A DNA stretch of 64,000 nt from Spirochaetaceae bacterium (GCA_046542845.1 JBKHAN010000002.1:15396-79395), one strand, 5' to 3'. Counted from the first letter of the stretch, positions 1 to 38,660 are shown. The notes: a model not told the origin generated them from the sequence alone. Numbers and translations: made by a program.

Positions 1-3000
1 CTCAGCCATACGAAACAACAGTAATTCGGACACCGTCAGCTCGTGTTGCGACAGTTCGACGCCGTAGTCGGCCATCATCCGATCGGCCATGTCCAGCCGG
101 GATCTGACCGCATTCACCGTCTCGGCCACTTGCGACTGCTGTGAGCGGACCCGCCCGTCCCGGTGCGACTCGTGCTCGAGGGCAAGCCCTGCGAACAGAC
201 GCGAAGCTCTCGCCGCAGGGTCCACGCCCCTGTCTCCAAGGCTCGCGAGATGAACTACGTCTGCGGTGGCATCGCGAACCCGCTCGGCCACGACTGTACC
301 GGTGGCGGTGCCGACCGAGAGCGTCACCGCACCCGACAGCACATCCGAGTACAGCCGCTCACCTGCCTCGCTGCCGAAACTGTAGAGGCTGCGAAGGGCA
401 GTACCGACGGAACGCGTCCCCTCGTAGTCCGGTGCAAAGACGGTCGTTCGGCTCAATGCGTGCGCTGCTATCTTCAACTGCTCGGCGTACACGGGAAGCC
501 CCGAAGCGAGGACCTGAAACCGGCGTGCGCTCGCGTCGATTCCACCGGAACCGAGCCGTATACCCGCCGCTGTCCCGCCGACATTCAGCTCTGCCAGCCC
601 GGCAGATGCGCCGGTCCGAAATCCCTGTATGCCCGCGATCTGCGTAAGATCGGCGAAATTCAGTACATTGAGCGTTGCGGACCCGGTGAGCCCGTGTTGC
701 AGCCCGAACTCCACGGCGCTGCCCACGCCCCCCGCGACCGCGCTCGCCGCCCCCCGATCAGCTGCGGAGAACCCGTTGAGGTCGCCGGTAAGAAGACTTC
801 CGCTGATGCGGCCCGCCGTACGGGCAATCGTGTCCGGCCCGGCGATGCCTCGCAGAAACCGTTCAGTCGAAAAACCGTTTGTCCCGAGGGCGTACACTGC
901 CGACCGCCCCGTGTTCGTGATCGCAAGTTCTCCAGCGGTGGACGCGAGCTCTCCGCCCCATCCCCGGCCGATTGCTCCTGTAATGCGGGATCCGGCAGAC
1001 CCTCCGAGGCTCCCGATTCCGACCGATGCAGCGTTCGTCAGGCTTCGAAGTGCGGCCTCTGAGGCGTCGGCCTCGCCGGACACAACATCCAGCGCAGAGG
1101 TGAGCGTGCTCGTACCAAGGCTCAGAGCGAGAGAGGCTCCTGCCGACATGAATCCACCGGCAACGCCGGCCCCGACGTGCAGAACATCGGAGATGGAAAA
1201 GGCGTTCTCGGCGTCCCAGAGACGGACGTTGTGGAAACCCTGTTGCAGTTCGCCATAACCGAGTCCCTGAAGCGATTGATAGTACATGAAGGGTCCATAC
1301 AGCGAGTGAAGCTCACCGCGACCGCGAAAGGCAATGTTCCCACGCCACCCGAGAGCCGTGTCGACACGGGGGAAAAGCTCCGGCGCATATCCGACGTGAG
1401 CGCCGAATGCACCGGGCATCAGCGTCGCCGCTTGATCGCGGTGCAGCACCTCCTCCTCATCGCCGTAGTCGATCAGCTCGGCGAGCCACCCGCGTTCGAG
1501 GCTCCGGCGAAGTACGGTGGCGGCATCCGGGTCGACGCGCCCCCCACCTGAACGCTCCGCGTCGCTGCCGAAGATCCGTTCGAGTTCGGTCGCGACCGAC
1601 TGCTGCGCCGCGGCGACCCGTTGTGAGACCGCAACGCTGCCTGAGGCGGCGAGACTGTGCAGGGACGTCCCTGAAGGCAGGTCGAAGCGGAAATCGCGAA
1701 AGGCTCTGTAGGGACGAATGCGGTGTCGCTCCCGCGTGCTCCCCTGCATCGTGTTTCCAACGAGCGTATCACGAACATATGAATCGGCCTCGCGGCGAAA
1801 TCCGGCTCGTGTAAAGGTGCGATGAATCGACTCTGCTACAGCGGCATTCGCTGAGTCGACCATGTGCATGGCTTCGTTTCGAATTCCATTCAGCTCTGAG
1901 ATAACATGTCCCGAGTGCACAAGGCTCAATCGCCGGGCAGTCTCGTCGTCTCCCCGGGACCGTGTCTCCTGCACGTGACGCAGTATCTCGACTTCAGATA
2001 CCGTCGCAAAGGGTCGCCCTGCGGCCACGCTCGTGCGATCGAACAAGTCCTCATGGTCACGGTTCGCGGCGGCATCGTGCAGGGAAAGGTTTTCGCGCGC
2101 AGCACGCAGCACACGTGAAAGTGTGTAAGCCGGCGAAAGATCGTCCACAAGTTCGTGCAACGCACCATCCCTGCTTTCCGTATGCGAACGAACCACGGGA
2201 GGCACGGCACGCGAGAGAATCTCGCGGACCAGGCGATCCGGTGATTCGTGGCCCTCGGCGTCGCGTGTCCATCCTCGTCGAAGCTCAAGCAGTTGCTCGT
2301 GACGCAACTCGTATTCGGCAGCTGTACGTTCGTAGGCGTGTGCTCGGTCCTGAAGCACGTCCGCGTAGCGCGAAACCAGTTCGTCGCCCGCGTCCTGCCA
2401 CGCCTGCCGCCCTCGGTCTTCGACTTCTTTGAGCTGGGCATGTCTCTGCCGTGCAGCGGCCGCGAGTCCGTCACGCATTAGATCCGTCCGCTCGCGAAAC
2501 GCCGCGCGGTCGTACTCGTCCCGCTCGTCGAGCCGTCGTCTGTAGTACTCGTGCAGAGTAGCGATCCGCTCCTCAGACAGAGACTGATGATGAAACGGCA
2601 GCTCCTGCGGGAACCGCTCGTACGCGTCGAGGAGGGCGCGCTTCAGACCTGCCGGGTCACGGTTCCCGGTGTCCTGTGCCGCCGCCTCAAGGAACGCGTC
2701 TTCGTCGCGTCGGAAGGCGAGCGATACGCGTTGCAGCTCTGAAAAAAGGTCGTGCGTAGCGTCGTTCAAACGCACACGGGGATTATCCGCTGTTCTTTCT
2801 ACGAGCGACACTGCGAAGGACTCTGCGCCTCCCCTGCTCCCGGGGGAAGACGCTATAATATGCGGGAGGTCGCTCAGCCCGCCGCGGGTCAGGGCTTCTC
2901 GCCGTGATTCAAGCTCTGCGTGACGCGAGGACAACGAGGCGTATGCACGAAACTCCGCTTCGATGTCGGCCACGCTCTCCCGGTATTCCTGCGCAAAGCC

Positions 3001-6000
3001 GAGTGCCGACAGATCGTCATGGAGCTCCTCATAACTGCCCGCGGCCCGACCCGCGGCCGCAGCGAGACTCAACTCAACAGTAGAACGAAGCATGAGCGTC
3101 GCCATGAGCGGTGGCGAGAAGAAGCTCGCAAGTCCCGAGAAGTAGAAACCCATTCCGATTGCGGTGAGCGTCCGGCTGCTGCGTCGACTCCGGCGGGCGA
3201 GCTCGCTGCTCCGGTCCATCGCGTGAGCAACCACGGTCGCGGGAGCCGACAGATACTCGATTTCCGACAGGAGATGATCGCCCTGTAAGGCCGATTCCTC
3301 GCGGTATGCGCGGTAGCTGCGGTACAGACTGCGAAGCTCCTGGTCCGCTTCGATGTGCGCGAGCGCTGCCTGCCCTTCTTCAAGGATGTACGCACCGAGA
3401 TCGGTGGGACTGCGAAAGGCGCCACCCCGCGTCAATGCATCGTGCAGAACAGGAGATACTATGCGCTCGGGTGTCATGAATCCGGACTCCGACCCGTTCC
3501 GGCCAGCTTCATAATCTCCGTAGGCTTCCGCATACATGGCCAGGCTGAAGCGATTCAGAAGCGTGCTTCCGTCCTCCTGAAGACGATCGGCAACCCGCAA
3601 AAACCAGTCGTGCCTGTCGCCGAGCGCGTCGCTCTCCGGACTGCGGAAGACGCCGTCGCGGGCGACCTGCATTTCCCGCGAGACGTCCTCGGTCTCCTCG
3701 TGTATGTCGCGGGTCAGTTCGTGAACCTCGCGCAGCAGATACTCCGCTTCAAGGCGTCCGGTGGCCAGGTCCGTGTATTCTGCGAAGCGCTCTGTGTCCC
3801 GCTCCACCACGTGCAGCTCCTCAAGCTCGTCGTGCGCCGCGGCGAGCGCTGACACCGCCTGATCGTAGCGCATCTCCACGTCCTCAGGGGTAAGCGAGAA
3901 ACTCCTCGCGTACACATCGACACTGCGCGCAATGGTGTACGCGTGCCGAGCCGCTTCTTCTTCGTCAATCGCATCCTCAAGGCTTGACTGTACCGTCTCG
4001 AGAACGCGGATCTCGTCCGAAAGCATCTCGAGCTGGCCTTCCCACTGTCGTACGATCGATGCCCGCTCGTCCCGGATCTGTTCAATCCGGTGGTTCATCT
4101 CGTGGAGCTCAGCGGCAGCCTCCTCCGGGTCATGCTGCAGCGCTTCCTGCAGCTGCGATCGTCGCACCATGAGGTTCGAGTAGAGACGGTCGTACTCTGA
4201 TCGGAGTTCGGCCTCCTCCGCGTAGCCCTCCGCCGACCGTTCCAATAGCTCTTCGGCAGCGGCGAACAGCTCCCCGGCGCTGCCGGCGGGCGTGGTCACG
4301 CCGTCGTAGGGCTGCAGTGCCGATACCATGCCGTTCAGCACCTCGCGTTCGCGGCGGTACACCCGGAGAGACTCGTCGGACCCGGCTGAAGCGGTTGACC
4401 CGGCCTCGAGCAGGGCCTGTGTCGTCCGGAGGTACTGCTCCTGAAGCACGGGTACGGAATCCATTTCAGGATCGAGTTCGTGATGCAGACCGGCGTCGAG
4501 GAACGCGTGCAGGTCGTCGCCGGCGGGAAGCGCAGACACACGTTCCCGGGCAGATTCGATGCGCGCGGGCGTCAGGACGTACTGTTCGAGATACTCGTAG
4601 CGCAGGGCTGCGTTTCGAGCAGAGGTCCGGGCGTTCGCGTCCCGCCAGCCGTCGATCGCGTGCGCGGACAGCTCACGCGCGACCGACGCCGAAGAAATCG
4701 CGTGTAAGATAGTCGGATCCTCTCGCTCCATGCGACTGAGTGCTTCCTCAAGCGCGTCGCCCGCCTCAGAGGATGCCGCGTCCTCCGGCAGGCCGTCGAG
4801 TAACTCGTCGATCCACGCTGCGACCCGCAGAACATCGCCGCTTCCGTATGCAGCATCCTCTGCCCCCGTCGCTCCGTGCAGCAGGATTCGCGCTTCGACC
4901 GACAGCTCAGTTTCGTCGGCCGCTGTGTCTTCGACGAAACGCGCGCGCTCAAGCTCGAGTGACAGCTGGGAGCGTATCCGCTGCAGTTCAAGACGTGCAA
5001 ATGTATCCGCGTTCGACTCCGGCTCCCCGGCATACGGGTCGAGCGCGTCGGCGAATACACTGACCTCAAGAATCGATGCACGGAGCATGTCCCGGAGTAC
5101 GCGCGCAGCGTGCGGGTAATCGGAAGCTGCCTCGGACAAGAGGTAGGTGGCCGAATCGGTCTGTGCTGAAGCGCGTATGCTTCTGAGAGCCGTTTCGGTA
5201 TCGCCGGCGGCGAAAGCCCGGGATGCGCTTTCAGCAGAATCGCCGCCAAGCTGGTCGAATACCGCTCGCGAATGCTCTTCGAGCGCTTCTTGCCGCTCGC
5301 CGAAATACAGGAACCGCTCGGCGTCGTGTTCCCGCTCCATGACACCGATCAGCACGTCGAGAAGCGCGTCGGCGTCATCGACAGCATCCCCGCCTCCGGT
5401 GAACCCGGTCCACGCTGCGACCGCATCAGCGGCAAGACGTTCGAGGAGTTCTTCCCCCGGTGCATCGAGGCGGCCGAGATACGCCCGCTGTCGCTCGTTC
5501 AACTCGGTAATTTCGAGGTCTGTTTCCCGAACAAGATCCGCGAACGATCGCTGCTCGGTCCTCAGTGACTCGATGCGAGCGGAAAGCTCGCGCATCTCCG
5601 CGCTGAGCTCGTGTACCGTCGCGGACGCGCGGGAAGCAGCCTCAGAGGCATACAGCAGGTTTTCTGCCGTCTCGGCAGCCGTTTCCCTGTTCGGGGACTC
5701 AGTACGTGCGTAGTCGCGGACGTGTTCCCAGACCGCGAGTTCCTCTTCGGCGCGGTCGATCGCGTATTCGGCGCGCGCGATTTCCCGGCTTTCGGGACCG
5801 TACCCCGCGTCGCCGTGGTATTCGTTCACAAAGCGGTCCATGGCATGCGCAGTGTCCGCTGCGATGCCTGCGTGGCGTTCTGCTTCCTGTTCCCAGTAGT
5901 CCCGCTCTGCGGCCGACTCGGGTCGGTCCAGAGACGTCCAGAGCTCCGCGGCGGTTCGTGCCGTTCGCTCGGCGGCCCGGCTTGAGCGGTAGAGGTTTAC

Positions 6001-6939
6001 GGCTGCCGAAAGCCGCTCATCCGCAGCGCTTCGGCGAGCCCGTATCGCTTGTGCCTCCGCGTCGGCTGCAACGGCGCGCTGCCGTTCGAAGGCCTCCCGC
6101 TGCTGTTCATGCCACATCGTTTCATTCGATACGAGCTCGCGAAACGACTCTTCCCAGGTCTGCCGCTGACCGGAGAGCCGGGAAAAGGCGTTCTGCCACG
6201 TCGCTCGCTCCGTCGAATACGCGGCATGCGTCGCTTCCTCCCACCGGAGACGTTCGGCGAGCAGGTCGGCTTCGGCTTCGTTCCACAGACCCTGAGCTTC
6301 GGCCACTGCCGCTGCGTAGCTTTCGTGGTCGGACGACCGCGGACCGTCCGGACGGCCGGTAACCGCAGGACGAACCGACGAAGAAGATTCGAAGAGCCAC
6401 GGCGCGTTGAGATACGATGCTGTCTCCAGGGGGGAGTTTCTCTCGGTAATGCGTCTGAGGCTTTCATGATCATATTTCCGTCTCGAGGTCACACGAGCCG
6501 ACTCAAGCTCTATGACGGTCTCAAGAGCGGGAACCTGACGACGGGCGTTGTCCCAGATCGCTTCGCGTTCTTCATGGTCTGAGTCTGCGTCGAGGCTGTC
6601 GACGCGACGCAGAGCGTCAAAGAGTCGCAGGCTTTCAAGTCCCGGCTCCCGCGTCGTTTCCCGGCTGTCACGCCAGCTGCGAAACGCTTCGTGCAGATAC
6701 GCGTCGAGATCCGCCTCCAGCTGTGCAGATGACTCCTGCGGCAGCCGGGAATGGCGGATGGCATAATCCCTTGCGGACGAGCCGTAGCTCCACCATTCTT
6801 CCTCGGTATTCGCGCGGGATGCGCGATCGAGGTACTCGTCAAGGTCCTGTCCGGGAATCGCATCGAGAGTCGTCGCGGCAAGCCCGAAAACAAGCGCCGC
6901 CGCGGCGTGTGAGAACCGTCTGCGTTCGGTCGTCGGCAT
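1..6939 (-). CDS. Giant hypothetical protein with a signal peptide, rich in Glu/Ala/Arg/Leu. At least 2,313 aa are visible and the C-terminus lies beyond base 1. It is not in the supplied ORF track.
   Basis: Manual minus-strand translation from ATG 6939-6937 stays open through every codon down to base 1. AAGGAGG lies at 6950-6944 and there is an in-frame TGA upstream at 7008-7006. The last visible residues are ...VELSQHELTVSELLLFRMAE at 60-1. The track lists no minus-strand ORF in this frame (end coordinate divisible by 3) anywhere in 1-6962, as expected for an ORF with no stop in the window. Every ORF the track does list there is a short Arg/Ser/Pro-rich off-frame product. The N-terminus MPTTERRRFSHAAAALVFGLAATTLDAIPGQD looks like a Sec signal. 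A hydrophobic stretch TLTAIGMGFYFSGLASFFSPPLMATLML lies at about 3171-3085, and a Gly/Ala/Ser-rich hydrophobic region at about 1185-640. Confidence 0.85.
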   Translation of the reverse strand, partial: MPTTERRRFSHAAAALVFGLAATTLDAIPGQDLDEYLDRASRANTEEEWWSYGSSARDYAIRHSRLPQESSAQLEADLDAYLHEAFRSWRDSRETTREPGLESLRLFDALRRVDSLDADSDHEEREAIWDNARRQVPALETVIELESARVTSRRKYDHESLRRITERNSPLETASYLNAPWLFESSSSVRPAVTGRPDGPRSSDHESYAAAVAEAQGLWNEAEADLLAERLRWEEATHAAYSTERATWQNAFSRLSGQRQTWEESFRELVSNETMWHEQQREAFERQRAVAADAEAQAIRARRSAADERLSAAVNLYRSSRAAERTARTAAELWTSLDRPESAAERDYWEQEAERHAGIAADTAHAMDRFVNEYHGDAGYGPESREIARAEYAIDRAEEELAVWEHVRDYARTESPNRETAAETAENLLYASEAASRASATVHELSAEMRELSARIESLRTEQRSFADLVRETDLEITELNERQRAYLGRLDAPGEELLERLAADAVAAWTGFTGGGDAVDDADALLDVLIGVMEREHDAERFLYFGERQEALEEHSRAVFDQLGGDSAESASRAFAAGDTETALRSIRASAQTDSATYLLSEAASDYPHAARVLRDMLRASILEVSVFADALDPYAGEPESNADTFARLELQRIRSQLSLELERARFVEDTAADETELSVEARILLHGATGAEDAAYGSGDVLRVAAWIDELLDGLPEDAASSEAGDALEEALSRMEREDPTILHAISSASVARELSAHAIDGWRDANARTSARNAALRYEYLEQYVLTPARIESARERVSALPAGDDLHAFLDAGLHHELDPEMDSVPVLQEQYLRTTQALLEAGSTASAGSDESLRVYRREREVLNGMVSALQPYDGVTTPAGSAGELFAAAEELLERSAEGYAEEAELRSEYDRLYSNLMVRRSQLQEALQHDPEEAAAELHEMNHRIEQIRDERASIVRQWEGQLEMLSDEIRVLETVQSSLEDAIDEEEAARHAYTIARSVDVYARSFSLTPEDVEMRYDQAVSALAAAHDELEELHVVERDTERFAEYTDLATGRLEAEYLLREVHELTRDIHEETEDVSREMQVARDGVFRSPESDALGDRHDWFLRVADRLQEDGSTLLNRFSLAMYAEAYGDYEAGRNGSESGFMTPERIVSPVLHDALTRGGAFRSPTDLGAYILEEGQAALAHIEADQELRSLYRSYRAYREESALQGDHLLSEIEYLSAPATVVAHAMDRSSELARRSRRSSRTLTAIGMGFYFSGLASFFSPPLMATLMLRSTVELSLAAAAGRAAGSYEELHDDLSALGFAQEYRESVADIEAEFRAYASLSSRHAELESRREALTRGGLSDLPHIIASSPGSRGGAESFAVSLVERTADNPRVRLNDATHDLFSELQRVSLAFRRDEDAFLEAAAQDTGNRDPAGLKRALLDAYERFPQELPFHHQSLSEERIATLHEYYRRRLDERDEYDRAAFRERTDLMRDGLAAAARQRHAQLKEVEDRGRQAWQDAGDELVSRYADVLQDRAHAYERTAAEYELRHEQLLELRRGWTRDAEGHESPDRLVREILSRAVPPVVRSHTESRDGALHELVDDLSPAYTLSRVLRAARENLSLHDAAANRDHEDLFDRTSVAAGRPFATVSEVEILRHVQETRSRGDDETARRLSLVHSGHVISELNGIRNEAMHMVDSANAAVAESIHRTFTRAGFRREADSYVRDTLVGNTMQGSTRERHRIRPYRAFRDFRFDLPSGTSLHSLAASGSVAVSQRVAAAQQSVATELERIFGSDAERSGGGRVDPDAATVLRRSLERGWLAELIDYGDEEEVLHRDQAATLMPGAFGAHVGYAPELFPRVDTALGWRGNIAFRGRGELHSLYGPFMYYQSLQGLGYGELQQGFHNVRLWDAENAFSISDVLHVGAGVAGGFMSAGASLALSLGTSTLTSALDVVSGEADASEAALRSLTNAASVGIGSLGGSAGSRITGAIGRGWGGELASTAGELAITNTGRSAVYALGTNGFSTERFLRGIAGPDTIARTAGRISGSLLTGDLNGFSAADRGAASAVAGGVGSAVEFGLQHGLTGSATLNVLNFADLTQIAGIQGFRTGASAGLAELNVGGTAAGIRLGSGGIDASARRFQVLASGLPVYAEQLKIAAHALSRTTVFAPDYEGTRSVGTALRSLYSFGSEAGERLYSDVLSGAVTLSVGTATGTVVAERVRDATADVVHLASLGDRGVDPAARASRLFAGLALEHESHRDGRVRSQQSQVAETVNAVRSRLDMADRMMADYGVELSQHELTVSELLLFRMAE

Positions 6940-9788: not shown

Positions 9789-9789
9789 C

Positions 9790-20836: not shown

Positions 20837-20843
20837 AATAATC

Positions 20844-28429: not shown

Positions 28430-29678
28430 GCGCGAGCGGCGCAGTTCCGTCCTCGTCGCTTTGGGCGTCTATCCGGAATGTTCCGGAATCGCGTGTCACA
28501 ACGACGAAATACCGGGCACCGTACACCGCTTCGCTCTCGGTGAGTGTTCGCCGGACGTCCGCACCGACCCGTACCAGTGGAAGGCGCGCCTCCACGGAAA
28601 CGTCGATCACAGTATTGTCGTCGCGACGTTCGATGCCGGCGTGCAGGCTGCCGCATGTACCCTGATATCCGGCGCTCACGCCGCTTCGAACAGCATGCTC
28701 GGCCACGCCGCGGTGATCAGTCTCCCGCTGGAGCGAGGATTCACCGCGAAAACTGAGCTGCGCGGGACTGAACACAGCCCGCAGGCGCGCTGTTGATTCG
28801 GTCTCCCGGAACTCGCGCGGGATCGGGTCCCGGGGAAGAACCGCTCCACTCACCGCAAACGTGACCGTCAGGTCCTCCGCGGCGCGAAGGTCCATCGCGA
28901 GGAGCGCCGCGGCTTCGCTTGTTGTGCCTCGCCCCTGCGCGTCGATGTATCCGGGGGTATGTATGAGACCAGCGATATCGATTGAGGAACGCAGCACCGG
29001 GAGCCTCAAGCCAAGCTGCATTCGAAGCGCCGGCGCTACGGTGGCACCGAACGGCATCGCAAACCGATACCTGAGATAGCGGTGTCTGAGCTCGAAACCA
29101 AGGTGCCCGAGCGTACGCTTACGCGTGTAGTCGGCGGGCAGTCGCCAGAAACCCGGGGATTCGTCGGTTTCGAGGAGAGTTCGCATGTACACGAATCGAG
29201 CGCCGGGTGCTTCTTCCGAATCCCCCTCAAGGTAGACAGCCGCCGCAGCGCGGGTCCAGCGGGACTCGACCCGGAGCACCGAGAAGCTCAGATTTCCCGC
29301 ACGGGCGACCATACCAACCGGACCAGCGCGGGCGGGGTCGGTCGCGAGCACAGGGCTGTCCGGTCCGAACATGCTGTCGAGCGAGATTGGAAGTGCCGGG
29401 GCGGCGTGCAGGTCGCGCTGCAGCCCCCGGTATCGTACGGGTCCTGCGATAAGCGCGGGTACCGCTAGTCCCGAGGCAAAATACTCGCGCGTTCCGTCTC
29501 GAACGACGTCACTGTACAGGATACGCAGAGAATCCTGATCGTAGATCAGACGCCGTTGCTGTTGCCCGGGTTCCGGGCTCCGAAGCGATACATCGAGTTG
29601 ACCGTCTACGGGAATGGCCTGCGCATACCCTGCCGTAAACAGAAGCGCGTACGCGCACAGACGAATAAACGTGTTCAC
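28389..29678 (-). CDS. Secreted hypothetical protein, possibly an outer-membrane beta-barrel
   Basis: Signal peptide MNTFIRLCAYALLFTAGYAQA. The composition alternates and is aromatic-rich. No known motif. The 3' end overlaps convergent murB by 41 nt. Confidence 0.65.
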   Translation of the reverse strand: MNTFIRLCAYALLFTAGYAQAIPVDGQLDVSLRSPEPGQQQRRLIYDQDSLRILYSDVVRDGTREYFASGLAVPALIAGPVRYRGLQRDLHAAPALPISLDSMFGPDSPVLATDPARAGPVGMVARAGNLSFSVLRVESRWTRAAAAVYLEGDSEEAPGARFVYMRTLLETDESPGFWRLPADYTRKRTLGHLGFELRHRYLRYRFAMPFGATVAPALRMQLGLRLPVLRSSIDIAGLIHTPGYIDAQGRGTTSEAAALLAMDLRAAEDLTVTFAVSGAVLPRDPIPREFRETESTARLRAVFSPAQLSFRGESSLQRETDHRGVAEHAVRSGVSAGYQGTCGSLHAGIERRDDNTVIDVSVEARLPLVRVGADVRRTLTESEAVYGARYFVVVTRDSGTFRIDAQSDEDGTAPLALSWTYSGAIPSPQ

Positions 29679-32161: not shown

Positions 32162-32974
32162 TCAGGCTTCCAGCTGAGGTTCATGTACGAAGGGATAACG
32201 CGCAAAATCGATACCCTCGGTAGAAAACCTCTTGTGCAGACCGATAAGCACACCGTTTTTTGCCGCCAGGAACTGATCTCGTGGAAACCAGACACCAAAG
32301 AGGACATCGACGCCGATGGGTGTGATCTGCTTGATCAGGAAAAACGGTTCCGGTTCGTCGAGCGTAACTTCAATCTCGCTGGAAAGCTCCAGGAGTAACT
32401 CCTTAACGCGCTCAAGATCCACGTGTGGTTCGAGGGTAAACTCGAAATCCATGCGACGAATCGGGAAACGGGTTACGTTTATGACATCGGTCTTGATGAT
32501 GTTTTCGTTCGGCACCCGGATATAGCGATTATCGAAGGTGCGAATCTTCACCGAGAGCAGATCGATGGAGAGGATTACTCCGGTGGTTTCACCGATAGTA
32601 ATAACGTCGCCAACGGAGAACGCCTTCTCTGAAATCAGAAAAAGCCCGCTTATGACGTTCGAGATACTGGTCTGTGCGGCGAAACCAAGGGCAACACCAG
32701 CGATACCGGCGGCGCCGAGAAAGGCGGTAAGGTTGGTGCCGAGTTGCGCGAGCAGCGTAACCACGAGGATAGCCATTCCACTGTAGACAATGACTTTCCG
32801 AAGGATCATTGCCGATTGCGGCGACAGCCGGCGCTCGAACCAGCGGCCGGCGAAAAAAACGAACACTTTCAGGATCAGAAAACCGGTGACCAGGACCACA
32901 AAAGCCCAGAAAAACCGTGAAAGGTTGTCCGGTTGTAAGAATTCCAGTAGCTGTTCGGGTACCATGCCAGTCAT
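32162..32974 (-). CDS. Small-conductance mechanosensitive channel (MscS family)
   Basis: Three N-terminal TM helices followed by FSVGDVITIGETTGVILSIDLLSVKIRTFDNRYIRVPNENI. Confidence 0.9.
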   Translation of the reverse strand: MTGMVPEQLLEFLQPDNLSRFFWAFVVLVTGFLILKVFVFFAGRWFERRLSPQSAMILRKVIVYSGMAILVVTLLAQLGTNLTAFLGAAGIAGVALGFAAQTSISNVISGLFLISEKAFSVGDVITIGETTGVILSIDLLSVKIRTFDNRYIRVPNENIIKTDVINVTRFPIRRMDFEFTLEPHVDLERVKELLLELSSEIEVTLDEPEPFFLIKQITPIGVDVLFGVWFPRDQFLAAKNGVLIGLHKRFSTEGIDFARYPFVHEPQLEA

Positions 32975-34276: not shown

Positions 34277-37156
34277 TTATGGCCGTTCGAGCAGAAACTC
34301 GACCCTTCTGTTCTGCCATATATTGTCGTAGTCATCGAATGGCACTACCGGTCGGTCACCTCCGATCGCCTGTATCGTCATTCTGTCGAGGTCGACACCG
34401 AGGATCGCCAGAGCGTCACGGACCTCCCGGGCGCGCTGTTCGCTGAGCGGAAGGAGGAAGTCACGCTGCTCGGCCCTTCGCTCTGCGGCGGTGGCAAAGC
34501 GAATATGGTTCGCGTGCCCTTCGACCACGATGTCCCTGTCGGGAAACTGGTTCAGAATCCGTGCGAGATTCTGAAGCGTATCAAGATTACTCTGCAGGCG
34601 GTCGTTCAGCTGTTCAAACAGATATCCGCTGTTCGGCTCAAACTCGATCGACGAAATGACAATTCTCAGGCGACCGTTCTCCTGCCTGACGATAATGTCC
34701 GTCAGAATATCCAGATCTTCGACCGTGACGTTTCGAAGCTCGTCCTCAACAGTAAGTCGGCCGGTGTACAGCTGTGCACTCTGCACGAGGGTCCCGTCCG
34801 CAAGCGTTCCGTCCCAGGTCAGTCCTTCGGGTGGTGTACCGGAACCTTCGATCGTACCAGCGTTGTTGCCTGCAGGGTCTATGAGGTCGATCTGCCAGCT
34901 CTCGATATCGGACCATTCGTCCTGCGCTGAAATCTCTACATTCAGATTCTCGCTTTGACCGTTGAACTCGGGTCGGAACGGAAGCGGCTCCGCGCTTACC
35001 TCGATCTCAGGACCACTGGCGTCGAGCAGGACCTCTTCGTCGGCAAAGTGTTCTACCCGACCACCGCCTTCATAATTCAGACGGATCCCAACGCGGTATC
35101 GTCCGTCGACAATATCACCCGTATCGGTTCGACCGTCCCATTCAATGCGGCTCGGTGGTACACCATCTCCTGCGACGGTCCTCACAACATCACCGTCCGC
35201 GCTTCGTACGATCGCCGTCCACGATTCAAGTCCTTCGGTTTGCGCCGGTGCAACGCTGATCGGGAGCGTATCCCGGTATCCGTCGCCGTTCGGTGCAAAC
35301 TCGGCGTACTCCGGGGTAATGCCGATCCGGGGTGCGTCGCGGTCTACCGCGACCGGCCCGACCGTAACCACAGGCTGGTTGCCGTTTCGGTAAAACACCT
35401 GAAGCTCCGTCTCGTAGCTTCCTTCAGGCACAGCGATACCGGCGTCGTCTCGACCGTCCCACGCAAATTCGGTAACAACACTCTCCGAGGTGAACGTCCT
35501 CACTACGTCTCCCTCAGATGACCGTACGGTGAAGACCATGGACTCGACGCTGTCGGTGACCTCAAGCTCCGGACGGTAGACTACTTCGTCGTTTACGCCC
35601 TGAAAGTCCGGCGATACGGTATCTGATTCCTGAGTAAGGTCAATGGGTGTCGCTCGCGTATCAAGCACAAAGACGACGCGGTTCGATTCACCGCGGTTCC
35701 CCGCCGCATCCTCTCCGTCAAGCCATGCAACATACTGCCCGTCCGGCAACTCCGAACCGTCAAGATCGCGACCGTCCCACTCGAGCGGGAAAATGTCGGG
35801 CGTGACATTCAGCTCTCCAAACACCTCATCGAGATCGAATCGGAACTGCTCGTCGTCCAGCTGAACCCACCCGGTCCACGATGCTTCGGTCTGCCAGTCA
35901 GCGTCGATTTCGAGCGTCGGCTTTGTATCGCCGCCGAAAACCTCGTGATTGACGGAAACCTGTGCCGAAGGTGCCACCGAATCTATGACCACAGGTTCAC
36001 CAAGAGAACTGAGGCTGACCCCGTTCTCGAATGTCACGGTGAACACCGTGTGATAGGTCGCATCCTCCATGATCCGGTTTGTGTCGTCACGACCATCCCA
36101 GGTAACAGCCTCGGGCGGTTCACCCGTACCTTCAAAGCGACGGTATACCTCTGTCTCGGTAGCCTCGTCGCGCACCTCAAGACTCCAGCTGTCGATCTCA
36201 AGCGGATTCTCCACCGACAGATCGAAATCAACCGTCCTGATCCTTCCCGACGGGTTAAAGGCCTCACGGTCTGCCGCGACCACGACGTCTCCTTCCTCGG
36301 TCGCTACACGGATGCCCGATACAGTTTCGCTGACCTCGTTCCCGGGGCGATCACGCCCGACAAGCTCGTAGCTGTACTGCCCGTCAGGGACTATGTCTCC
36401 GTCGTCGTCCCGACCATCCCAGTTCCAGGTTGTCGGACGCTGATCGTTGGCCAGGTCCTGGCGTTGCGGTGTCGCCGGATCGTACTGTATCGGATTTTCA
36501 AAGCGCTCGGTACGGACGACTTCACCGGCATCGTTGAGTATACGCGCGACCCAGGACACTTCCGCGCTTCCGTCCTGCTCTATCGTCACGCTCTCCCGTC
36601 CGCTTTCAATACCCGGGCTGAAGACCATGACAGGTATCTCAAGATTCTCGATTACGGGGGGCGTTGTGTCGACGGTGATGTTCTGCGGCGGAGTACGACG
36701 AGTCATGCCTTCATCGTCCACAACAAAAAGTTGATAGATATAGTCGCCGTCGGGTACAATGTCTCCGTTATTGTCACGGCCGTCCCACTGAAGACTACTG
36801 ATAAGCTCAGGGTCTATCTGGGGGACATCGCCGATGTTGAACAGGTTGCCGAAAAAGCCGCGAGTCTCGGTTTCTTCCTCGATCTGCTGATATACAATAT
36901 CGCCCTCGGCGTTAAAGACGTTCAGCTCAAAGGATCGAATAACCCGGTCGGGAGCCGGCGCTATTTCAGGATCGAGTCGCAGCACCTGATGCTCCGCCTC
37001 GGCTACACCCGGTGCTATGAAAATCCTGGGTTGTCGAGGTATGTCAATGACAAACTCGCCGTCTTCCTGGGTCCCACCGGCGAATACCGGCACTGCAAGA
37101 GCTGAAAGCGCCAACAGCAGAATGGTCGCCCTTAATATCCTCGAATGACTAGTCAT
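34277..37156 (-). CDS. Large envelope protein: signal peptide, seven FlgD-Ig-like modules, C-terminal OmpA peptidoglycan-binding domain
   Basis: Track ORF (GTG 37177) trimmed to ATG 37156, with AAGGAA 8 nt upstream. Signal peptide MTSHSRILRATILLLALSALAVPVFA. C-terminus: IVVEGHANHI...LSEQRAREVRDALAILGVDLDRMTIQAIGGDRPVVP...NRRVEFLL. Confidence 0.88.
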   Translation of the reverse strand: MTSHSRILRATILLLALSALAVPVFAGGTQEDGEFVIDIPRQPRIFIAPGVAEAEHQVLRLDPEIAPAPDRVIRSFELNVFNAEGDIVYQQIEEETETRGFFGNLFNIGDVPQIDPELISSLQWDGRDNNGDIVPDGDYIYQLFVVDDEGMTRRTPPQNITVDTTPPVIENLEIPVMVFSPGIESGRESVTIEQDGSAEVSWVARILNDAGEVVRTERFENPIQYDPATPQRQDLANDQRPTTWNWDGRDDDGDIVPDGQYSYELVGRDRPGNEVSETVSGIRVATEEGDVVVAADREAFNPSGRIRTVDFDLSVENPLEIDSWSLEVRDEATETEVYRRFEGTGEPPEAVTWDGRDDTNRIMEDATYHTVFTVTFENGVSLSSLGEPVVIDSVAPSAQVSVNHEVFGGDTKPTLEIDADWQTEASWTGWVQLDDEQFRFDLDEVFGELNVTPDIFPLEWDGRDLDGSELPDGQYVAWLDGEDAAGNRGESNRVVFVLDTRATPIDLTQESDTVSPDFQGVNDEVVYRPELEVTDSVESMVFTVRSSEGDVVRTFTSESVVTEFAWDGRDDAGIAVPEGSYETELQVFYRNGNQPVVTVGPVAVDRDAPRIGITPEYAEFAPNGDGYRDTLPISVAPAQTEGLESWTAIVRSADGDVVRTVAGDGVPPSRIEWDGRTDTGDIVDGRYRVGIRLNYEGGGRVEHFADEEVLLDASGPEIEVSAEPLPFRPEFNGQSENLNVEISAQDEWSDIESWQIDLIDPAGNNAGTIEGSGTPPEGLTWDGTLADGTLVQSAQLYTGRLTVEDELRNVTVEDLDILTDIIVRQENGRLRIVISSIEFEPNSGYLFEQLNDRLQSNLDTLQNLARILNQFPDRDIVVEGHANHIRFATAAERRAEQRDFLLPLSEQRAREVRDALAILGVDLDRMTIQAIGGDRPVVPFDDYDNIWQNRRVEFLLERP
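34745..36830 (-). repeat. Seven tandem coding repeats of about 100 aa each (FlgD-Ig-like)
   Basis: Each module contains WDG(R/T).. followed by G..V.DG.Y. The seven cores are WDGRDNNGDIVPDGDY, WDGRDDDGDIVPDGQY, WDGRDDTNRIMEDATY, WDGRDLDGSELPDGQY, WDGRDDAGIAVPEGSY, WDGRTDTGDIVDGRY and WDGTLADGTLVQSAQLY. The first Trp codon is at 36787-36785 and the last at 34816-34814. The outer boundaries are approximate. Confidence 0.75.
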
Positions 37157-37340: not shown

Positions 37341-38660
37341 GTGCTGTGTGTCCACAAGGGTAGGAGCCCGGGTAGATTTCGCAGGCAGGCAACAATCCCG
37401 ATATTGCGCTACATTTTCCCCATGCTCTTGTATCGTCTCTCGTGGACAGGCTGTATCCTTGTTTTTCTCGCCCTTTCTGCTGCCTCGGCGCAAACGCCGG
37501 TGACCACTGCCAGCTCGGCCGTTCCCTTGCTGAATCCGGGAGAGCGTCTCGAAATTACAGAACACGCGAACTACACGGTTCATCGCAACAACGAGTACGC
37601 CGGGCATCTGCAGCGGGAGACGCGGATATCCCTTGTGGCATCGCACCGTGACGATCTGCAGTCGATGCCACGGAGTTATCGCGGTGAGGTTCTTGTGACC
37701 GAAGATACGATCCGAAACCTCCGGACGATCGCCAGTCCTCTGTCGGTGCGTGCAGCGACGACGGTAGAATTCGACGGGACTCGTCTTCTCAGACGAGCCG
37801 GGGCGTCGGTCACACAAGGTATACCCACAGTACCAGCTCGCGGGGTCGATGCCGGTTGGGAGGCGCCGGCGGTGGTCCGGCTTCAGCTGGATAGCGAGAC
37901 GACCCGGAGCATTCCCGTGGTGGTTGCCTACCGTCCCCGCGGGTACGAGGTGTATCGGGGCGAGCGCGTATTCCGCATCGAATACGGCTACGCGCTCAGG
38001 TGGCCACTTGCCCCGCTGCAGCTCGAAGAGCACCCGGCAGCGGACTTGTTTGAGGCGGCTGACCTTCCACAGGACACGGTTTCGATTACCGGGAATCGTC
38101 AGGGGGTTGTACTTCTGCCGGCCGCTGGAGGACTGCCGGTCCTTCACCGTACCGAGCTCACCGAGCAGATCGTTGCATCAGGTGGCGATGTAGAGGACAG
38201 ACGAGGTTTTCTCCTGCGATGGTATCGTGGACCGACTGGCTCGCCCCGGATTGTCGAGCGACTTCAGGATCGAACCATTCCCGGGGTGGATATCGAACGC
38301 GACCCCTACGATCGGGTGCGTCTGTCGATCCGTGATCTTCAGTTTGTCGCAGATCAGGCGGCACTGCTACCAGGCGAGACGGGCCGACTCGACGCGCTTT
38401 CAGAACTCCTCCAATCGCTTGGTGAAACGACGATCCTTGTAACCGGCCATACCGCGGATATCGGCCTGGTCGAGAACCAGATGAACCTGTCGGTCGCCCG
38501 GGCGCGTCGAATCACCGAAGAGTTGATTGCCCGGGGCGTTGCACCGGGACGCCTGCGATACGAGGGACGCGGGGCGACCGAGCCGATCGGCGACAACAAC
38601 ACAGAACAGGGGCGCGCTGCAAACCGGCGGGTGGAGATTACCCTTCTGCAGGATTCGTGA
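37341..38660 (+). CDS. OmpA-domain envelope protein (unknown N-terminal domain plus OmpA C-terminal domain)
   Basis: C-terminus: ILVTGHTADIGLVENQMNLSVARARRITEELIARGVAPGRLRYEGRGATEPI...NRRVEITLL. GTG 37341 has AAGGAA 7 nt upstream. The alternative start ATG 37422 (MLLYRLSWTGCILVFLALSAASA) has no SD. Confidence 0.85.
   Translation: MLCVHKGRSPGRFRRQATIPILRYIFPMLLYRLSWTGCILVFLALSAASAQTPVTTASSAVPLLNPGERLEITEHANYTVHRNNEYAGHLQRETRISLVASHRDDLQSMPRSYRGEVLVTEDTIRNLRTIASPLSVRAATTVEFDGTRLLRRAGASVTQGIPTVPARGVDAGWEAPAVVRLQLDSETTRSIPVVVAYRPRGYEVYRGERVFRIEYGYALRWPLAPLQLEEHPAADLFEAADLPQDTVSITGNRQGVVLLPAAGGLPVLHRTELTEQIVASGGDVEDRRGFLLRWYRGPTGSPRIVERLQDRTIPGVDIERDPYDRVRLSIRDLQFVADQAALLPGETGRLDALSELLQSLGETTILVTGHTADIGLVENQMNLSVARARRITEELIARGVAPGRLRYEGRGATEPIGDNNTEQGRAANRRVEITLLQDS

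What the first reader, a model, noticed from the sequence alone, without database searches (positions are those of the whole stretch)
1..38660. Extracytoplasmic proteins and domains are almost lysine-free, while cytoplasmic ones are lysine-normal
By-eye Lys counts in predicted extracytoplasmic proteins:
- 0 in the 466-aa TolC-like protein
- 0 in the 548-aa TIG/transglutaminase-like protein
- 0 in mature Big_5 lipoprotein 1
- 1 in the 959-aa OmpA/FlgD-Ig protein (GGDTKPTLE)
- 0 in the second OmpA protein after residue 6
- about 2 in the MFP
- about 4 in 2,313 aa of the giant ORF

Arg is abundant in all of these.

Cytoplasmic proteins in the same window are normal, for example about 29 Lys in the 409-aa cNMP-binding protein.

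The split holds inside single proteins. All 3 Lys of the anti-sigma factor lie before its TM segment. The MCP has 1 Lys in its periplasmic domain of about 185 aa and about 10 in its cytoplasmic part.

GC pressure alone cannot explain a bias that depends on cellular compartment. The pattern fits adaptation of exposed proteins to an alkaline and/or saline exterior, because Arg stays charged at pH values where Lys does not. It also fits avoidance of Lys-directed chemistry or proteases. In this genome it could serve as a rough topology indicator.
Basis: partly seen in the sequence, partly recalled or inferred. Interest (0 to 1): 0.65.

Follow-up and report, generated by a model that had tools for sequence, protein, structure and literature searches.

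The report
Lysine-purged exported proteins, soda-lake spirochete
In this spirochete, whose closest relatives live in pH ~10 soda lakes, every protein or protein segment outside the cytoplasmic membrane has swapped almost all lysine for arginine, an extreme case of a known adaptation to alkaline water.

Summary

**In the window**
- Ten exported proteins (6,446 mature residues) hold 10 Lys and 647 Arg. 24 cytoplasmic proteins (10,151 residues) hold 339 Lys and 742 Arg (Fisher p ~1e-65), with no overlap per protein.
- The split holds inside proteins. Membrane-protein loops have 31 K/102 R inside and 2 K/84 R outside. Signal peptides keep Lys.
- It is not base composition. GC3 and Arg-codon usage are the same in both gene sets.

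**Across relatives**
- The window is a spirochete MAG. Syntenic relatives from Cock Soda Lake, a Cariboo alkaline lake and Cuatro Cienegas (pH ~9.8-10, saline) share the purge.
- About 37 orthologues from other spirochetes, including GC-rich ones, carry 10-46 Lys where this protein has none.
- Termite-gut Treponema show a partial version.

**Beyond lysine**
- K+R stays constant, so Arg replaces Lys.
- Cys is equally purged, and Tyr and Asn are reduced. These side chains titrate or react near pH 10.

**Verdict**
Alkaline adaptation is supported; salinity is a confounded contributor. Lys-to-Arg adaptation is known for single enzymes and for the Bacillus halodurans secretome. This is an unusually complete new member of a known kind.

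The parts
1..6939 (-). Giant exported ORF. Its N-terminal 2313 aa are in the window; the gene runs off the window start.
   Evidence: It has 4 K / 245 R. The N-terminus is signal-peptide-like, MPTTERRRFSHAAAALVFGLAATTLDAIPG. There is no Pfam, NCBIfam or PDB hit and no tandem repeat.
7048..8448 (+). TolC-like outer-membrane efflux protein (OEP), 466 aa
   Evidence: 0 K / 53 R; Pfam OEP.
8445..9788 (+). HlyD-type membrane-fusion lipoprotein, 447 aa
   Evidence: K2 is in the signal peptide and K114 is the only Lys in the mature part; 48 R in the mature part.
9760..11190 (+). Big_5 lipoprotein 1, 476 aa
   Evidence: Both Lys (K5, K12) lie in the signal-peptide n-region. The mature part has 0 K / 38 R.
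11190..12635 (+). Big_5 lipoprotein 2, 481 aa
   Evidence: K2 and K5 are in the signal peptide. The mature part has 3 K / 41 R, the highest exported K/(K+R) at 0.068.
12632..15556 (+). RND (AcrB-family) permease, 974 aa
   Evidence: 2 K / 75 R. K414 is in a cytoplasmic loop and K197 in the large periplasmic loop. The periplasmic loops total 616 aa with 1 K / 56 R.
15535..18162 (+). Second, diverged RND-like permease, 875 aa (start uncertain)
   Evidence: 3 K / 86 R; weak ACR_tran match.
20844..22748 (+). Methyl-accepting chemotaxis protein, 634 aa
   Evidence: The periplasmic domain (residues 30-206) has 1 K / 15 R. The cytoplasmic parts have 12 K / 28 R. K76 is Arg in all three soda-lake orthologues.
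22717..24363 (-). Membrane-anchored TIG + transglutaminase-like protein, 548 aa
   Evidence: 0 K / 60 R and 0 Cys. Soda-lake orthologues have 0-1 K; 37 other spirochete orthologues have 10-46 K.
24380..24859 (-). Exported 159-aa protein of the ECF sigma / anti-sigma cluster
   Evidence: 0 K. It has a signal peptide and is conserved next to the anti-sigma factor across spirochetes.
24856..25434 (-). Single-pass anti-sigma factor, 192 aa
   Evidence: K26, K52 and K74 all lie before the TM segment at 94-112. The periplasmic tail has 0 K / 8 R.
28389..29678 (-). Exported 429-aa protein of unknown family
   Evidence: 1 K / 47 R. K187 is not conserved in orthologues, and the orthologues have 1-2 K.
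34277..37156 (-). FlgD_ig / OmpA-domain protein, 959 aa
   Evidence: 1 K (K412), conserved in L002 and L003 and Arg in L004. The L012 orthologue (GC 0.66) has 80 K.
37422..38660 (+). OmpA-domain protein, 412 aa
   Evidence: 0 K / 46 R in the mature part.
32162..32974 (-). MscS channel (also MscS at 48478-49569- and MarC at 41313-41906-)
   Evidence: All Lys lie on the cytoplasmic side or at the cytoplasmic ends of TM helices, and none lie in outside loops.
41919..43037 (-). Membrane-anchored 372-aa protein, probably facing outward
   Evidence: 3 K / 32 R, with an N-terminal TM-like segment and no family hit. Its localisation is inferred.
18108..19337 (-). Cytoplasmic comparator: cNMP-binding protein, 409 aa
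   Evidence: 29 K / 28 R. Orthologues everywhere have 24-37 K.
25409..27437 (-). Cytoplasmic comparators: ECF sigma factor and CysS
   Evidence: 11 K / 18 R and 15 K / 42 R. They sit beside Lys-free exported genes in the same gene cluster.

Best explanation
The window comes from a spirochete of a soda-lake clade.

Proposed mechanism:
- Its periplasm and surface sit at the external pH of about 10, in carbonate brine, while the cytoplasm is held closer to neutral.
- At that pH the lysine amine (pKa about 10.4) is largely deprotonated. It then neither carries charge nor forms salt bridges, and it becomes a reactive nucleophile.
- Selection has therefore removed lysine from every polypeptide segment that ends up outside the cytoplasmic membrane. 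Arginine (pKa about 13.8) has filled the same basic-residue budget.
- The same selection removed cysteine and thinned tyrosine and asparagine, which also titrate or degrade near pH 10, and raised Asp and Glu.
- Segments that stay in the cytoplasm keep lysine. These are soluble enzymes, cytoplasmic loops and signal-peptide n-regions.

Shown here: the compositional split, its independence from base composition, its restriction to clades from alkaline habitats, and Arg-for-Lys compensation.

Inferred: that pH is the agent, rather than the salt that accompanies it, and which physical cost of lysine matters (loss of charge or chemical reactivity).
For: 1. Size and sharpness.
- Exported proteins have 10 K / 647 R; cytoplasmic proteins have 339 K / 742 R.
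- Membrane-protein loops have 2 K / 84 R outside and 31 K / 102 R inside.
- Signal peptides have 5 K / 17 R against 10 K / 647 R in the mature parts.

2. Not mutational.
- GC3, Arg-codon choice and use of A-rich GAA codons are the same in both gene sets.

3. Lineage and habitat.
- The closest relatives are syntenic MAGs L001-L003 (CysS 77% identical) and L004.
- They come from Cock Soda Lake (pH 10; PMC6704655), a Cariboo alkaline salt lake (PMC8619395) and Cuatro Cienegas Archaean Domes (pH 9.8; PMC11169877).
- They share the purge orthologue by orthologue, while all other spirochete orthologues are Lys-normal.
- The exported/cytoplasmic K/(K+R) ratio is 0.00-0.10 in the window and L001-L003. 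It is 0.37-1.9 in 46 other loci.

4. Dose-like gradient.
- The pooled exported/cytoplasmic Lys frequency ratio is 0.06 for the soda clade, 0.51 for termite-gut Treponema and 0.82 for mammal/bird Treponema.
- The TIG_TGase/CysS ratio differs between termite and mammal groups (p = 3e-4).
- A Treponema-like contig shares its metagenome prefix (JGI24694J35173) with MAG Co191P1bin45. Its TIG_TGase has 1 K / 57 R, beside cytoplasmic proteins at K/(K+R) 0.17-0.50.

5. Compensation and co-depletion.
- K+R is unchanged (10.2% vs 10.65%).
- Exported/cytoplasmic ratios are Cys 0.06, Tyr 0.63 and Asn 0.73 in the soda clade, against 0.61-0.83, 1.09-1.25 and 0.91-1.24 elsewhere.
- Only one non-lipobox Cys occurs in 6,446 exported residues.

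6. Residual Lys are mostly unconserved, interchanging with Arg among close relatives, as expected for weakly deleterious variants.

7. Prior work gives the physical rationale and the direction.
- Single-enzyme studies are summarised in PMC8153356 and PMC5433712.
- In the Bacillus halodurans secretome, Arg is favoured over Lys (PMC9110029).
Against: - pH and salinity are confounded in all the soda-lake relatives, and exported proteins are also more acidic (D+E 16.2% vs 13.4%), which is a halophilic trait.
- I could not read the habitat of the window's own MAG (GCA_048624475.1, labelled only 'bacterium').
- An alkaline habitat does not always produce a purge. Secreted glycoside hydrolases of Alkalitalea saponilacus (Soap Lake, pH 9.8) keep 1.7-4.7% Lys (PMC13591233).
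- The first 50 kb of a Thioalkalivibrio plasmid showed only a weak shift, 23 K / 123 R exported against 193 K / 639 R cytoplasmic.
- A GC-0.71 contig of unknown habitat (L086) shows a similar split.
- Localisation came from a home-made predictor, and only 64 kb plus about 20-kb flanks of relatives were examined.
- No biochemical data exist.
Confidence: 0.8

Rival explanations
1. Salt, not pH, is the agent. The organism keeps salt out of its cytoplasm, so only exported proteins face the brine. They adopt the halophilic surface strategy of fewer Lys, more Arg and more Asp/Glu.
For: - All relatives with the purge live in 5-12% salt (PMC6704655, PMC11169877).
- Exported proteins carry more acidic residues and a more negative net charge (-6.0 vs -2.8 per 100 aa).
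- The L004 OmpA orthologue is 28% Asp+Glu.
- The '-K +R' strategy is described for halophilic proteins (PMC5433712).
- The window encodes two MscS channels and a GH65 phosphorylase, which is compatible with compatible-solute osmoadaptation.
Against: - Co-depletion of Cys, Tyr and Asn is not a recognised halophilic signature.
- Treponema from termite guts, which are not hypersaline, show partial to strong Lys loss in exported proteins.
- L009, a spirochete MAG from what I recall (uncertainly) is the saline layer of Lake El Tobar, has an exported/cytoplasmic ratio of 1.0.
- From my own knowledge, halophile proteomes reduce Lys but do not eliminate it.
Confidence: 0.3
2. The bias reflects Sec translocation rather than life outside the cell. 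In neutrophiles Lys is deprotonated in SecY and re-protonated outside, a 'proton ratchet' that favours Lys over Arg. With the inverted pH gradient of an alkaliphile that advantage vanishes and the preference reverses.
For: Allen et al. 2022 (PMC9110029) showed a Lys preference in Sec substrates of E. coli, S. meliloti and B. subtilis and its reversal in alkaliphilic B. halodurans. They linked this to the pH gradient.
Against: - Losing the ratchet predicts relaxation toward the cytoplasmic K/(K+R) of about 0.3, not a drop to 0.015.
- In that study Arg is the slowest residue to translocate, so transport should never select for 10% Arg.
- Cys and Tyr depletion has no role in the ratchet.
Confidence: 0.1
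3. Lysine is avoided because something outside specifically attacks it, such as Lys-specific proteases from competitors or Lys-reactive small molecules. pH itself plays no part.
For: - Near-total removal suggests that each exposed Lys is a liability.
- Residual Lys are unconserved.
Against: - A Lys-specific protease does not explain the equal loss of Cys and the thinning of Tyr and Asn.
- It does not explain the loss of Lys from periplasmic loops behind the outer membrane.
- It does not explain recurrence of the pattern in unrelated alkaline habitats.
- Chemical attack on the deprotonated amine is already part of the main explanation.
Confidence: 0.05
4. It is a compositional artefact: GC-driven loss of AAA/AAG codons, foreign origin of the exported genes, or mis-called reading frames.
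For: - The first 16 kb are slightly more GC-rich (0.62-0.63 vs 0.57-0.59).
- This lineage is somewhat Lys-poor in cytoplasmic proteins too: CysS K/(K+R) is 0.26, against 0.37-0.8 in other spirochetes.
Against: - GC3 is equal in both sets, and the GC excess sits at codon positions 1 and 2, so it follows from the amino-acid change.
- Seven of the ten exported proteins have Pfam domains in the called frame, and six have orthologues in relatives' loci.
- The split occurs within single genes.
- GC-rich neutrophilic spirochetes and myxobacteria do not show it.
- S. meliloti, which is GC-rich, prefers Lys in secreted proteins (PMC9110029).
Confidence: 0.02

Closest known systems
Alkaline adaptation of secreted enzymes of alkaliphilic Bacillus (for example M-protease; summarised in Horikoshi 2004, PMC8153356)
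   Same: Proteins that must work at pH 10 or above have lost Lys and gained Arg relative to neutrophilic homologues. The rationale, the different pKa values of Lys and Arg, is the same.
   Different: That work describes single enzymes with partial Lys loss, and in M-protease fewer acidic residues. Here every exported protein and every outward loop is affected, Lys is about 20-fold depleted, acidic residues rise, and Cys, Tyr and Asn fall as well.
Secretome-wide Lys/Arg reversal in Bacillus halodurans (Allen et al. 2022, eLife, PMC9110029)
   Same: It is a proteome-level, compartment-specific shift of K/(K+R) toward Arg in the exported proteins of an alkaliphile.
   Different: That shift is a modest displacement of the distribution in a monoderm, and it was interpreted through Sec transport and the inverted pH gradient. 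Here K/(K+R) is about 0.015 in a diderm, far below the cytoplasmic value, and it also applies to the loops of membrane proteins.
Halo-/alkali-adaptation of periplasmic octaheme nitrite reductases of Thioalkalivibrio ('-K +R, +D/E'; PMC5433712)
   Same: A periplasmic protein of a soda-lake diderm has less surface Lys and more Arg, Asp and Glu.
   Different: That study covers one enzyme family and reports a 70% reduction of Lys surface area. It does not describe a near-absence across unrelated exported proteins.
Positive-inside rule for membrane proteins (von Heijne; own knowledge)
   Same: Basic residues are distributed asymmetrically across the cytoplasmic membrane and report topology.
   Different: Here Arg is abundant outside, in soluble domains and large loops. 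Only Lys follows a near-absolute 'inside' rule, and it applies to soluble exported proteins too.
Genome-based prediction of growth pH from extracellular versus intracellular amino-acid composition (GenomeSPOT preprint, 10.1101/2024.03.22.586313)
   Same: It uses the same principle: the composition of exported proteins tracks external pH while the cytoplasmic composition does not. R/(R+K) is among its features.
   Different: It is a statistical correlation across cultured strains. The passages I read highlight Glu as the pH correlate and do not describe Lys-free secretomes.

Membership tests
Alkaline-adapted extracytoplasmic proteome of an alkaliphile | Exported proteins are depleted in Lys and enriched in Arg relative to cytoplasmic proteins of the same genome. 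| tested here: met
   Lys is 0.16% vs 3.34% and Arg is 10.0% vs 7.3%. K:R Fisher p = 1.5e-65.
Alkaline-adapted extracytoplasmic proteome of an alkaliphile | The same proteins are Lys-normal in neutrophilic relatives. | tested here: met
   TIG_TGase has 0 K here and 10-46 K in 37 orthologues. The FlgD_ig/OmpA protein has 1 K here and 80 K in L012.
Alkaline-adapted extracytoplasmic proteome of an alkaliphile | The bias is independent of base composition. | tested here: met
   GC3 is 0.67 vs 0.68 and the AGR share is 0.108 vs 0.113. The split is present within single genes.
Alkaline-adapted extracytoplasmic proteome of an alkaliphile | The organism lives and grows at pH 9 or above. | tested here: inconclusive
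   The closest relatives come from waters at pH 9.8-10 (PMC6704655, PMC8619395, PMC11169877). The window's own MAG, GCA_048624475.1, has no habitat label that I could read.
Alkaline-adapted extracytoplasmic proteome of an alkaliphile | Exported proteins are stable and functional at high pH, and Lys-containing versions are not. | not testable with these tools
   This needs biochemistry.
Salt-in halophile proteome | There is a proteome-wide acidic shift that includes cytoplasmic proteins (very low pI, Lys-poor throughout). | tested here: not met
   Cytoplasmic proteins have a median pI of 5.6, a net charge of -2.8 per 100 aa and 3.3% Lys.
Sec 'proton-ratchet' composition bias (Allen et al. 2022) | Neutrophile pattern: Sec substrates prefer Lys over Arg relative to the cytosol. 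| tested here: not met
   The reverse is seen, and by about 20-fold.
Sec 'proton-ratchet' composition bias (Allen et al. 2022) | Alkaliphile pattern: the preference is lost or mildly reversed. | tested here: inconclusive
   The direction matches. The magnitude, K/(K+R) 0.015 against 0.31 in the cytoplasm, exceeds what loss of a transport advantage predicts. That last step is inference.
GC-driven lysine loss | Lys is lost in all compartments in proportion to GC. | tested here: not met
   The loss is compartment-specific. GC-rich spirochetes L012, L017 and L056 have exported/cytoplasmic ratios of 1.1-1.9. Myxobacterial controls show no clean split.

The most novel reading that the evidence does not exclude
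The extracytoplasmic proteome of soda-lake spirochetes may be written in a restricted, 'alkali-proof' amino-acid alphabet. Lys and free Cys are effectively forbidden, and Tyr and Asn are rationed. The reason would be that at pH ~10 in ~0.6 M carbonate every exposed deprotonated amine or thiolate is chemically modified (for example carbamylated) or destabilising. If so, K/(K+R) of exported versus cytoplasmic segments would be a quantitative, lineage-independent read-out of habitat pH and a near-deterministic topology marker in such genomes. It would also show that environmental chemistry can override the Sec machinery's strong kinetic penalty on arginine.
Probability: 0.3. Interest if true: 0.7.

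Novelty: new member of a known kind. Interest (0 to 1): 0.5.

Why it matters
- **Habitat inference.** The result gives a clean natural example of how far external chemistry can reshape protein composition on one side of a membrane. In this clade the Lys/Arg ratio alone separates exported from cytoplasmic proteins without overlap. It could flag alkaliphily in uncultured genomes, and the graded signal in termite-gut Treponema suggests it scales with pH.
- **Topology prediction.** Lys positions mark the cytoplasmic side of membrane proteins in these genomes.
- **Protein engineering.** The clade offers a library of Lys-free, Cys-free versions of common folds (TolC, HlyD, OmpA, Ig-like, RND loops) for designing alkali-stable proteins.
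- **Secretion mechanism.** It sets up a direct test of the Sec 'proton-ratchet' model. These cells export proteins with 10% Arg, the residue reported to be slowest to translocate.
- **Laboratory practice.** Amine-reactive surface labelling and Lys-C digestion would largely miss the surface proteome of such organisms.

Tried and rejected
- **Source contig.** An exact-sequence look-up of the window's SHMT found nothing. The source MAG was later found through the RND protein, but its label is only 'bacterium'.
- **Gene calling.** A self-trained sense/antisense codon model lost true genes (TIG_TGase, ECF sigma, citrate synthase) and was dropped. I used conservation-guided ORF choice for the locus survey and a curated, largely Pfam-supported gene list for the window.
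- **Recent K-to-R substitution.** I looked for an excess of AGA/AGG Arg codons in exported genes and found none (0.108 vs 0.113). The replacement is therefore old or at equilibrium.
- **Regression.** Regressing TIG_TGase K/(K+R) on CysS K/(K+R) gave only z of -1.2 to -1.8, because the value sits at the floor of 0. With the predicted p = 0.17 and 60 basic residues, the binomial chance of 0 Lys is about 1e-5 (my arithmetic).
- **Transglutaminase active site.** I suspected a lost catalytic Cys. No Cys column is conserved in any lineage of this family, so the absence is not informative.
- **RND homologue search.** The search is biased toward Arg-rich sequences because it depends on shared words, so its K/(K+R) distribution was not used as a background.
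- **Other phyla.** The Thioalkalivibrio plasmid pTK9001 was inconclusive. L086 shows the split but its habitat is unknown. Two myxobacterial controls do not show it.
- **Giant ORF.** Pfam, NCBIfam, PDB and tandem-repeat searches gave no annotation.
- **Literature.** These searches found no description of a near-Lys-free exported proteome. They cover open-access text only.
- **Nitrogen or biosynthetic economy.** I rejected this because Arg costs more nitrogen than Lys (own knowledge).

Full report
**1. What is in the window**

The window is 59% GC. Pfam defines a dense gene map.

- Positions 1-6939 (-) hold the 5' part of a giant ORF with no family hit.
- Positions 7048-18162 (+) hold an efflux operon: TolC-like OEP, HlyD-type fusion lipoprotein, two Big_5 lipoproteins, an AcrB-family permease and a second, diverged permease.
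- Next come a cNMP-binding protein, SHMT and an MCP.
- A conserved cluster follows on the minus strand: ECF sigma factor, anti-sigma factor, a 159-aa exported protein and a TIG/transglutaminase-like protein. After it come CysS, MurB, a 429-aa exported protein, a GH65 phosphorylase and MscS.
- Then there is a 959-aa FlgD_ig/OmpA protein and a second OmpA protein.
- From 38.7 kb onward the genes are mostly cytoplasmic enzymes: PEP carboxylase, fumarase, two malate/lactate dehydrogenases, NadE, citrate synthase and 2-oxoacid dehydrogenase subunits.

It did not mention the RND permeases.

**2.

Every by-eye count was reproduced.

- After removing predicted signal peptides, ten exported proteins total 6,446 residues with 10 Lys and 647 Arg.
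- 24 cytoplasmic proteins total 10,151 residues with 339 Lys and 742 Arg. The Fisher test on K:R gives p = 1.5e-65.
- Per-protein K/(K+R) is 0-0.068 for exported and 0.13-0.67 for cytoplasmic proteins, with no overlap (Mann-Whitney p = 6e-6).
- Dropping the unannotated giant ORF leaves 6 Lys in 4,163 residues.

The split holds inside single polypeptides.

- Across the MCP, the anti-sigma factor, the RND permease, two MscS channels and MarC, cytoplasmic segments hold 31 K / 102 R.
- Outward segments of the same proteins hold 2 K / 84 R (p = 9e-6).
- The signal peptides of the exported proteins contain 5 K / 17 R, against 10 K / 647 R in the mature parts (p = 5e-5). Lys is therefore tolerated in the part of these precursors that stays on the cytoplasmic side.

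**3. It is not base composition, foreign DNA or frame error**

- GC3 is 0.67 in exported and 0.68 in cytoplasmic genes. The extra GC of the first 16 kb sits at codon positions 1 and 2, so it follows from the amino-acid change rather than causing it.
- AGA/AGG make up 10.8% and 11.3% of Arg codons in the two sets.
- A-rich GAA is used 245 times in exported genes.
- Seven of the ten exported proteins carry Pfam domains in the called frame, and six have orthologues in relatives' loci.
- The equal AGR share also means there is no trace of recent single-step Lys-to-Arg changes. The state is old.

**4. Who it is and who shares the trait**

A genome scan with CysS showed the organism is a spirochete. 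The best matches are listed below.

| Locus | CysS identity | MAG | Habitat |
|---|---|---|---|
| L001, L002 | 77% | CSSed162cmA_133, CSSed162cmB_249 | Cock Soda Lake sediment: pH 10, 50-120 g/L salt, 0.62 M carbonate alkalinity (PMC6704655) |
| L003 | 77% | DLM2.Bin42 | DLM2 bins are from an alkaline salt lake, Cariboo Plateau (PMC8619395) |
| L004 | 64% | C1M08_9 | Cuatro Cienegas Archaean Domes: wet-season pH 9.8, 5.28% salt (PMC11169877) |

An identical RND protein places the window in NCBI MAG GCA_048624475.1, which is labelled only 'bacterium'.

L001-L003 are syntenic with window positions 18-37 kb.

| Protein | Window | Soda-lake relatives | Other spirochetes |
|---|---|---|---|
| TIG_TGase | 0 K | 0, 0 and 1 K | 10-46 K in 37 orthologues (L017, GC 0.63: 20 K; L032, GC 0.55: 18 K) |
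| FlgD_ig/OmpA | 1 K | 2, 2 and 1 K | 80 K in L012 (GC 0.66) |
| 429-aa exported protein | 1 K | 1-2 K | no orthologue found |
| cNMP-binding (cytoplasmic) | 29 K | 28-30 K | 24-37 K |
| ECF sigma (cytoplasmic) | 11 K | 11-12 K | 9-23 K |

**5. A survey of all fetched loci**

I called genes with conservation-guided ORF choice and a simple signal-peptide/TM classifier.

- The exported/cytoplasmic K/(K+R) ratio is 0.00-0.10 for the window and L001-L003.
- It is 0.37-1.9, with a median of about 0.88, for the 46 other loci that had enough sequence.

Pooled by origin, the exported/cytoplasmic Lys frequency ratio is as follows.

| Group | Ratio |
|---|---|
| Soda clade | 0.06 |
| Termite-gut Treponema | 0.51 |
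| Mammal/bird Treponema | 0.82 |
| Remaining loci | 0.69 |

- The termite-versus-mammal difference also appears at orthologue level. The TIG_TGase/CysS ratio has a median of 0.61 against 0.89 (p = 3e-4).
- A homologue search with TIG_TGase found a Treponema-like contig of GC 0.70. It shares the metagenome prefix JGI24694J35173 with MAG Co191P1bin45.
- On that contig TIG_TGase has 1 K / 57 R, and three other exported proteins have K/(K+R) of 0.09-0.12. Cytoplasmic neighbours have 0.17-0.50.
- From my own knowledge, the anterior hindgut (P1) of higher termites is strongly alkaline and not hypersaline. If so, this is an independent lineage pointing to pH as the agent.

**6. What replaces lysine, and what else changes**

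- K+R is 10.2% in exported and 10.65% in cytoplasmic proteins. Exported K+R is about the same in every group of spirochetes, 9.6-10.3%. Arg has therefore taken over the whole basic-residue budget.
- The soda clade's exported proteins are also specifically depleted in three other residues.

| Residue | Soda-clade exported/cytoplasmic ratio | Other groups |
|---|---|---|
| Cys | 0.06 | 0.61-0.83 |
| Tyr | 0.63 | 1.09-1.25 |
| Asn | 0.73 | 0.91-1.24 |

- The same proteins are enriched in Arg, Asp and Glu.
- Of the four Cys in 6,446 exported residues, three are the lipid-modified Cys of lipoproteins.
- Lys, Cys and Tyr are the side chains with pKa values between about 8 and 10.5, and Asn deamidation is base-catalysed (own knowledge). 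This pattern fits an exterior at pH ~10 better than a Lys-specific threat does.
- Residual Lys are mostly unconserved among close relatives: MCP K76 is Arg, and p429 K187 is Gly, Ala or Asp. One exception is FlgD_ig/OmpA K412, which is conserved in two relatives.

**7. Mechanism**

The best-supported reading is selection by the alkaline exterior on every segment that leaves the cytoplasm.

- Shown: the compartment split, its independence from mutation bias, its clade and habitat distribution, and charge compensation by Arg.
- Inferred: that the periplasm is at external pH, which is established for E. coli (own knowledge), and that the cost of Lys is loss of charge and/or reactivity of the free amine.
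- Carbamate formation in molar carbonate is an attractive specific cost, but I did not test it.
- A simple calculation shows what is at stake. With the cytoplasmic Lys share, these proteins would shift from -5.7 to -10.6 charges per 100 residues between pH 7 and 10.5. As they are, they shift only to -8.4.

**8. Rivals**

- **Salt.** Salinity is confounded with pH in the soda lakes and probably contributes to the extra acidity. It does not explain the loss of Cys, Tyr and Asn or the termite-gut signal.
- **Sec transport.** The proton-ratchet idea (PMC9110029) predicts that the Lys preference is lost. It does not predict a 20-fold purge in favour of the residue that is slowest to translocate.
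- **Lys-specific proteases.** These do not explain the co-depleted residues or the periplasmic loops.
- **Compositional artefacts.** These are excluded in section 3. High-GC myxobacterial controls support this: Lys is low and noisy in both compartments and exported proteins are Cys-rich.

**9. Comparison with what is known**

- Lys-to-Arg replacement is a textbook feature of alkaline-adapted secreted enzymes (PMC8153356) and of Thioalkalivibrio periplasmic nitrite reductases (PMC5433712).
- A compartment-specific reversal of the Lys/Arg preference was reported proteome-wide for Bacillus halodurans (PMC9110029).
- Exported-versus-cytoplasmic composition is used to predict growth pH (preprint 10.1101/2024.03.22.586313).
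- The kind of phenomenon is therefore known.
- In the open literature I could search, I did not find a description of an essentially Lys-free and Cys-free exported proteome with loop-level sharpness.
- An alkaline habitat alone does not guarantee it. Alkalitalea saponilacus secreted enzymes keep 1.7-4.7% Lys (PMC13591233), and 50 kb of a Thioalkalivibrio plasmid gave only a weak shift.
- I file this as a new and unusually complete member of a known kind.

**10. Limits**

- Localisation calls are heuristic.
- Only 64 kb of this genome and about 20-kb flanks of relatives were examined.
- I did not see the habitat of the window's own MAG.
- pH and salt are not formally separated.
- No experiment supports the proposed physical cost of lysine.

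Noticed in passing
L025, L042, L048, L075, L040 and other termite-gut Treponema loci; L089/L090 (ENA ERZ27257340 / JGI 3300002552 contig JGI24694J35173_10002189): Treponema from higher-termite hindguts show a partial version of the Lys purge in exported proteins. The pooled exported/cytoplasmic Lys ratio is 0.51, against 0.82 in mammal/bird Treponema. One GC-0.70 contig shares its metagenome prefix with MAG Co191P1bin45 and shows a strong version: TIG_TGase has 1 K / 57 R beside cytoplasmic proteins at K/(K+R) 0.17-0.50.
   Followed up: partly
window 1-38660, all exported proteins: Exported proteins are also almost free of cysteine: 4 Cys in 6,446 residues, 3 of them lipoprotein +1 Cys. They are also reduced in Tyr and Asn. 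Neutrophilic spirochete exported proteins are not.
   Followed up: yes
L086 (JGI 3300010430, contig Ga0118733_100000303, GC 0.71): A non-spirochete contig found through a Lys-poor RND homologue shows the same compartment split. Its periplasmic fusion protein has 0 K / 36 R, two solute-binding proteins have 1 K / 48 R and 4 K / 40 R, and Ffh has 42 K / 44 R. Its habitat is unknown.
   Followed up: partly
L091 (Logan SRR32456881 contig, GC 0.61): A more distant spirochete, syntenic with the window (MurB-CysS-sigma-antisigma-159aa-TIG_TGase-SHMT-cNMP), has intermediate depletion. TIG_TGase has 7 K / 61 R and 0 Cys, and a 515-aa lipoprotein has 2 K / 61 R. Its habitat is unknown.
   Followed up: no
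window 7048-18162 (+): The efflux operon has an unusual make-up: OEP, fusion protein, two Big_5/CopC-like lipoproteins, and two tandem RND permeases. The second permease (875 aa) matches AcrB only weakly and mainly at its N-terminus. Distant matches to three of these genes (fusion protein, Big_5 lipoprotein 1 and the first RND permease, 23-29% identity) lie together in a termite-gut Treponema locus (L054).
   Followed up: no
window 1-6939 (-): A giant ORF of more than 2,313 aa is rich in Arg, Glu and Asp. It has no Pfam, NCBIfam or PDB match and no tandem repeats. Its N-terminus contains an RRRF motif that resembles a twin-arginine signal.
   Followed up: partly
window 25998-27437 (-) and 47176-48456 (-): There are two CysS-like genes. 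The second is shorter (426 aa), matches soda-lake CysS orthologues at only 35-37% identity, and lacks the C-terminal anticodon-binding domain hits of the first.
   Followed up: no
window 54788-56640 (+): Two adjacent malate/lactate dehydrogenase paralogues sit in tandem, next to fumarase and upstream of citrate synthase and 2-oxoacid dehydrogenase genes.
   Followed up: no
window 32992-33858 (-): A 288-aa protein with no family hit and no signal peptide has the lowest K/(K+R) of the 'cytoplasmic' set (4 K / 26 R, 0.13). By the lysine rule it may be partly extracytoplasmic or exported by another route.
   Followed up: no
window 33883-34170 (-): A small 96-aa ORF, conserved in related loci, is Lys-rich (9 K / 7 R) and lies between Lys-poor genes. 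It has no family hit.
   Followed up: no
L081 (Thioalkalivibrio sp. K90mix plasmid pTK9001, 24584-28480): On a soda-lake gammaproteobacterial plasmid that otherwise shows only a weak shift, one 1,298-aa exported protein has 1 K / 53 R.
   Followed up: no
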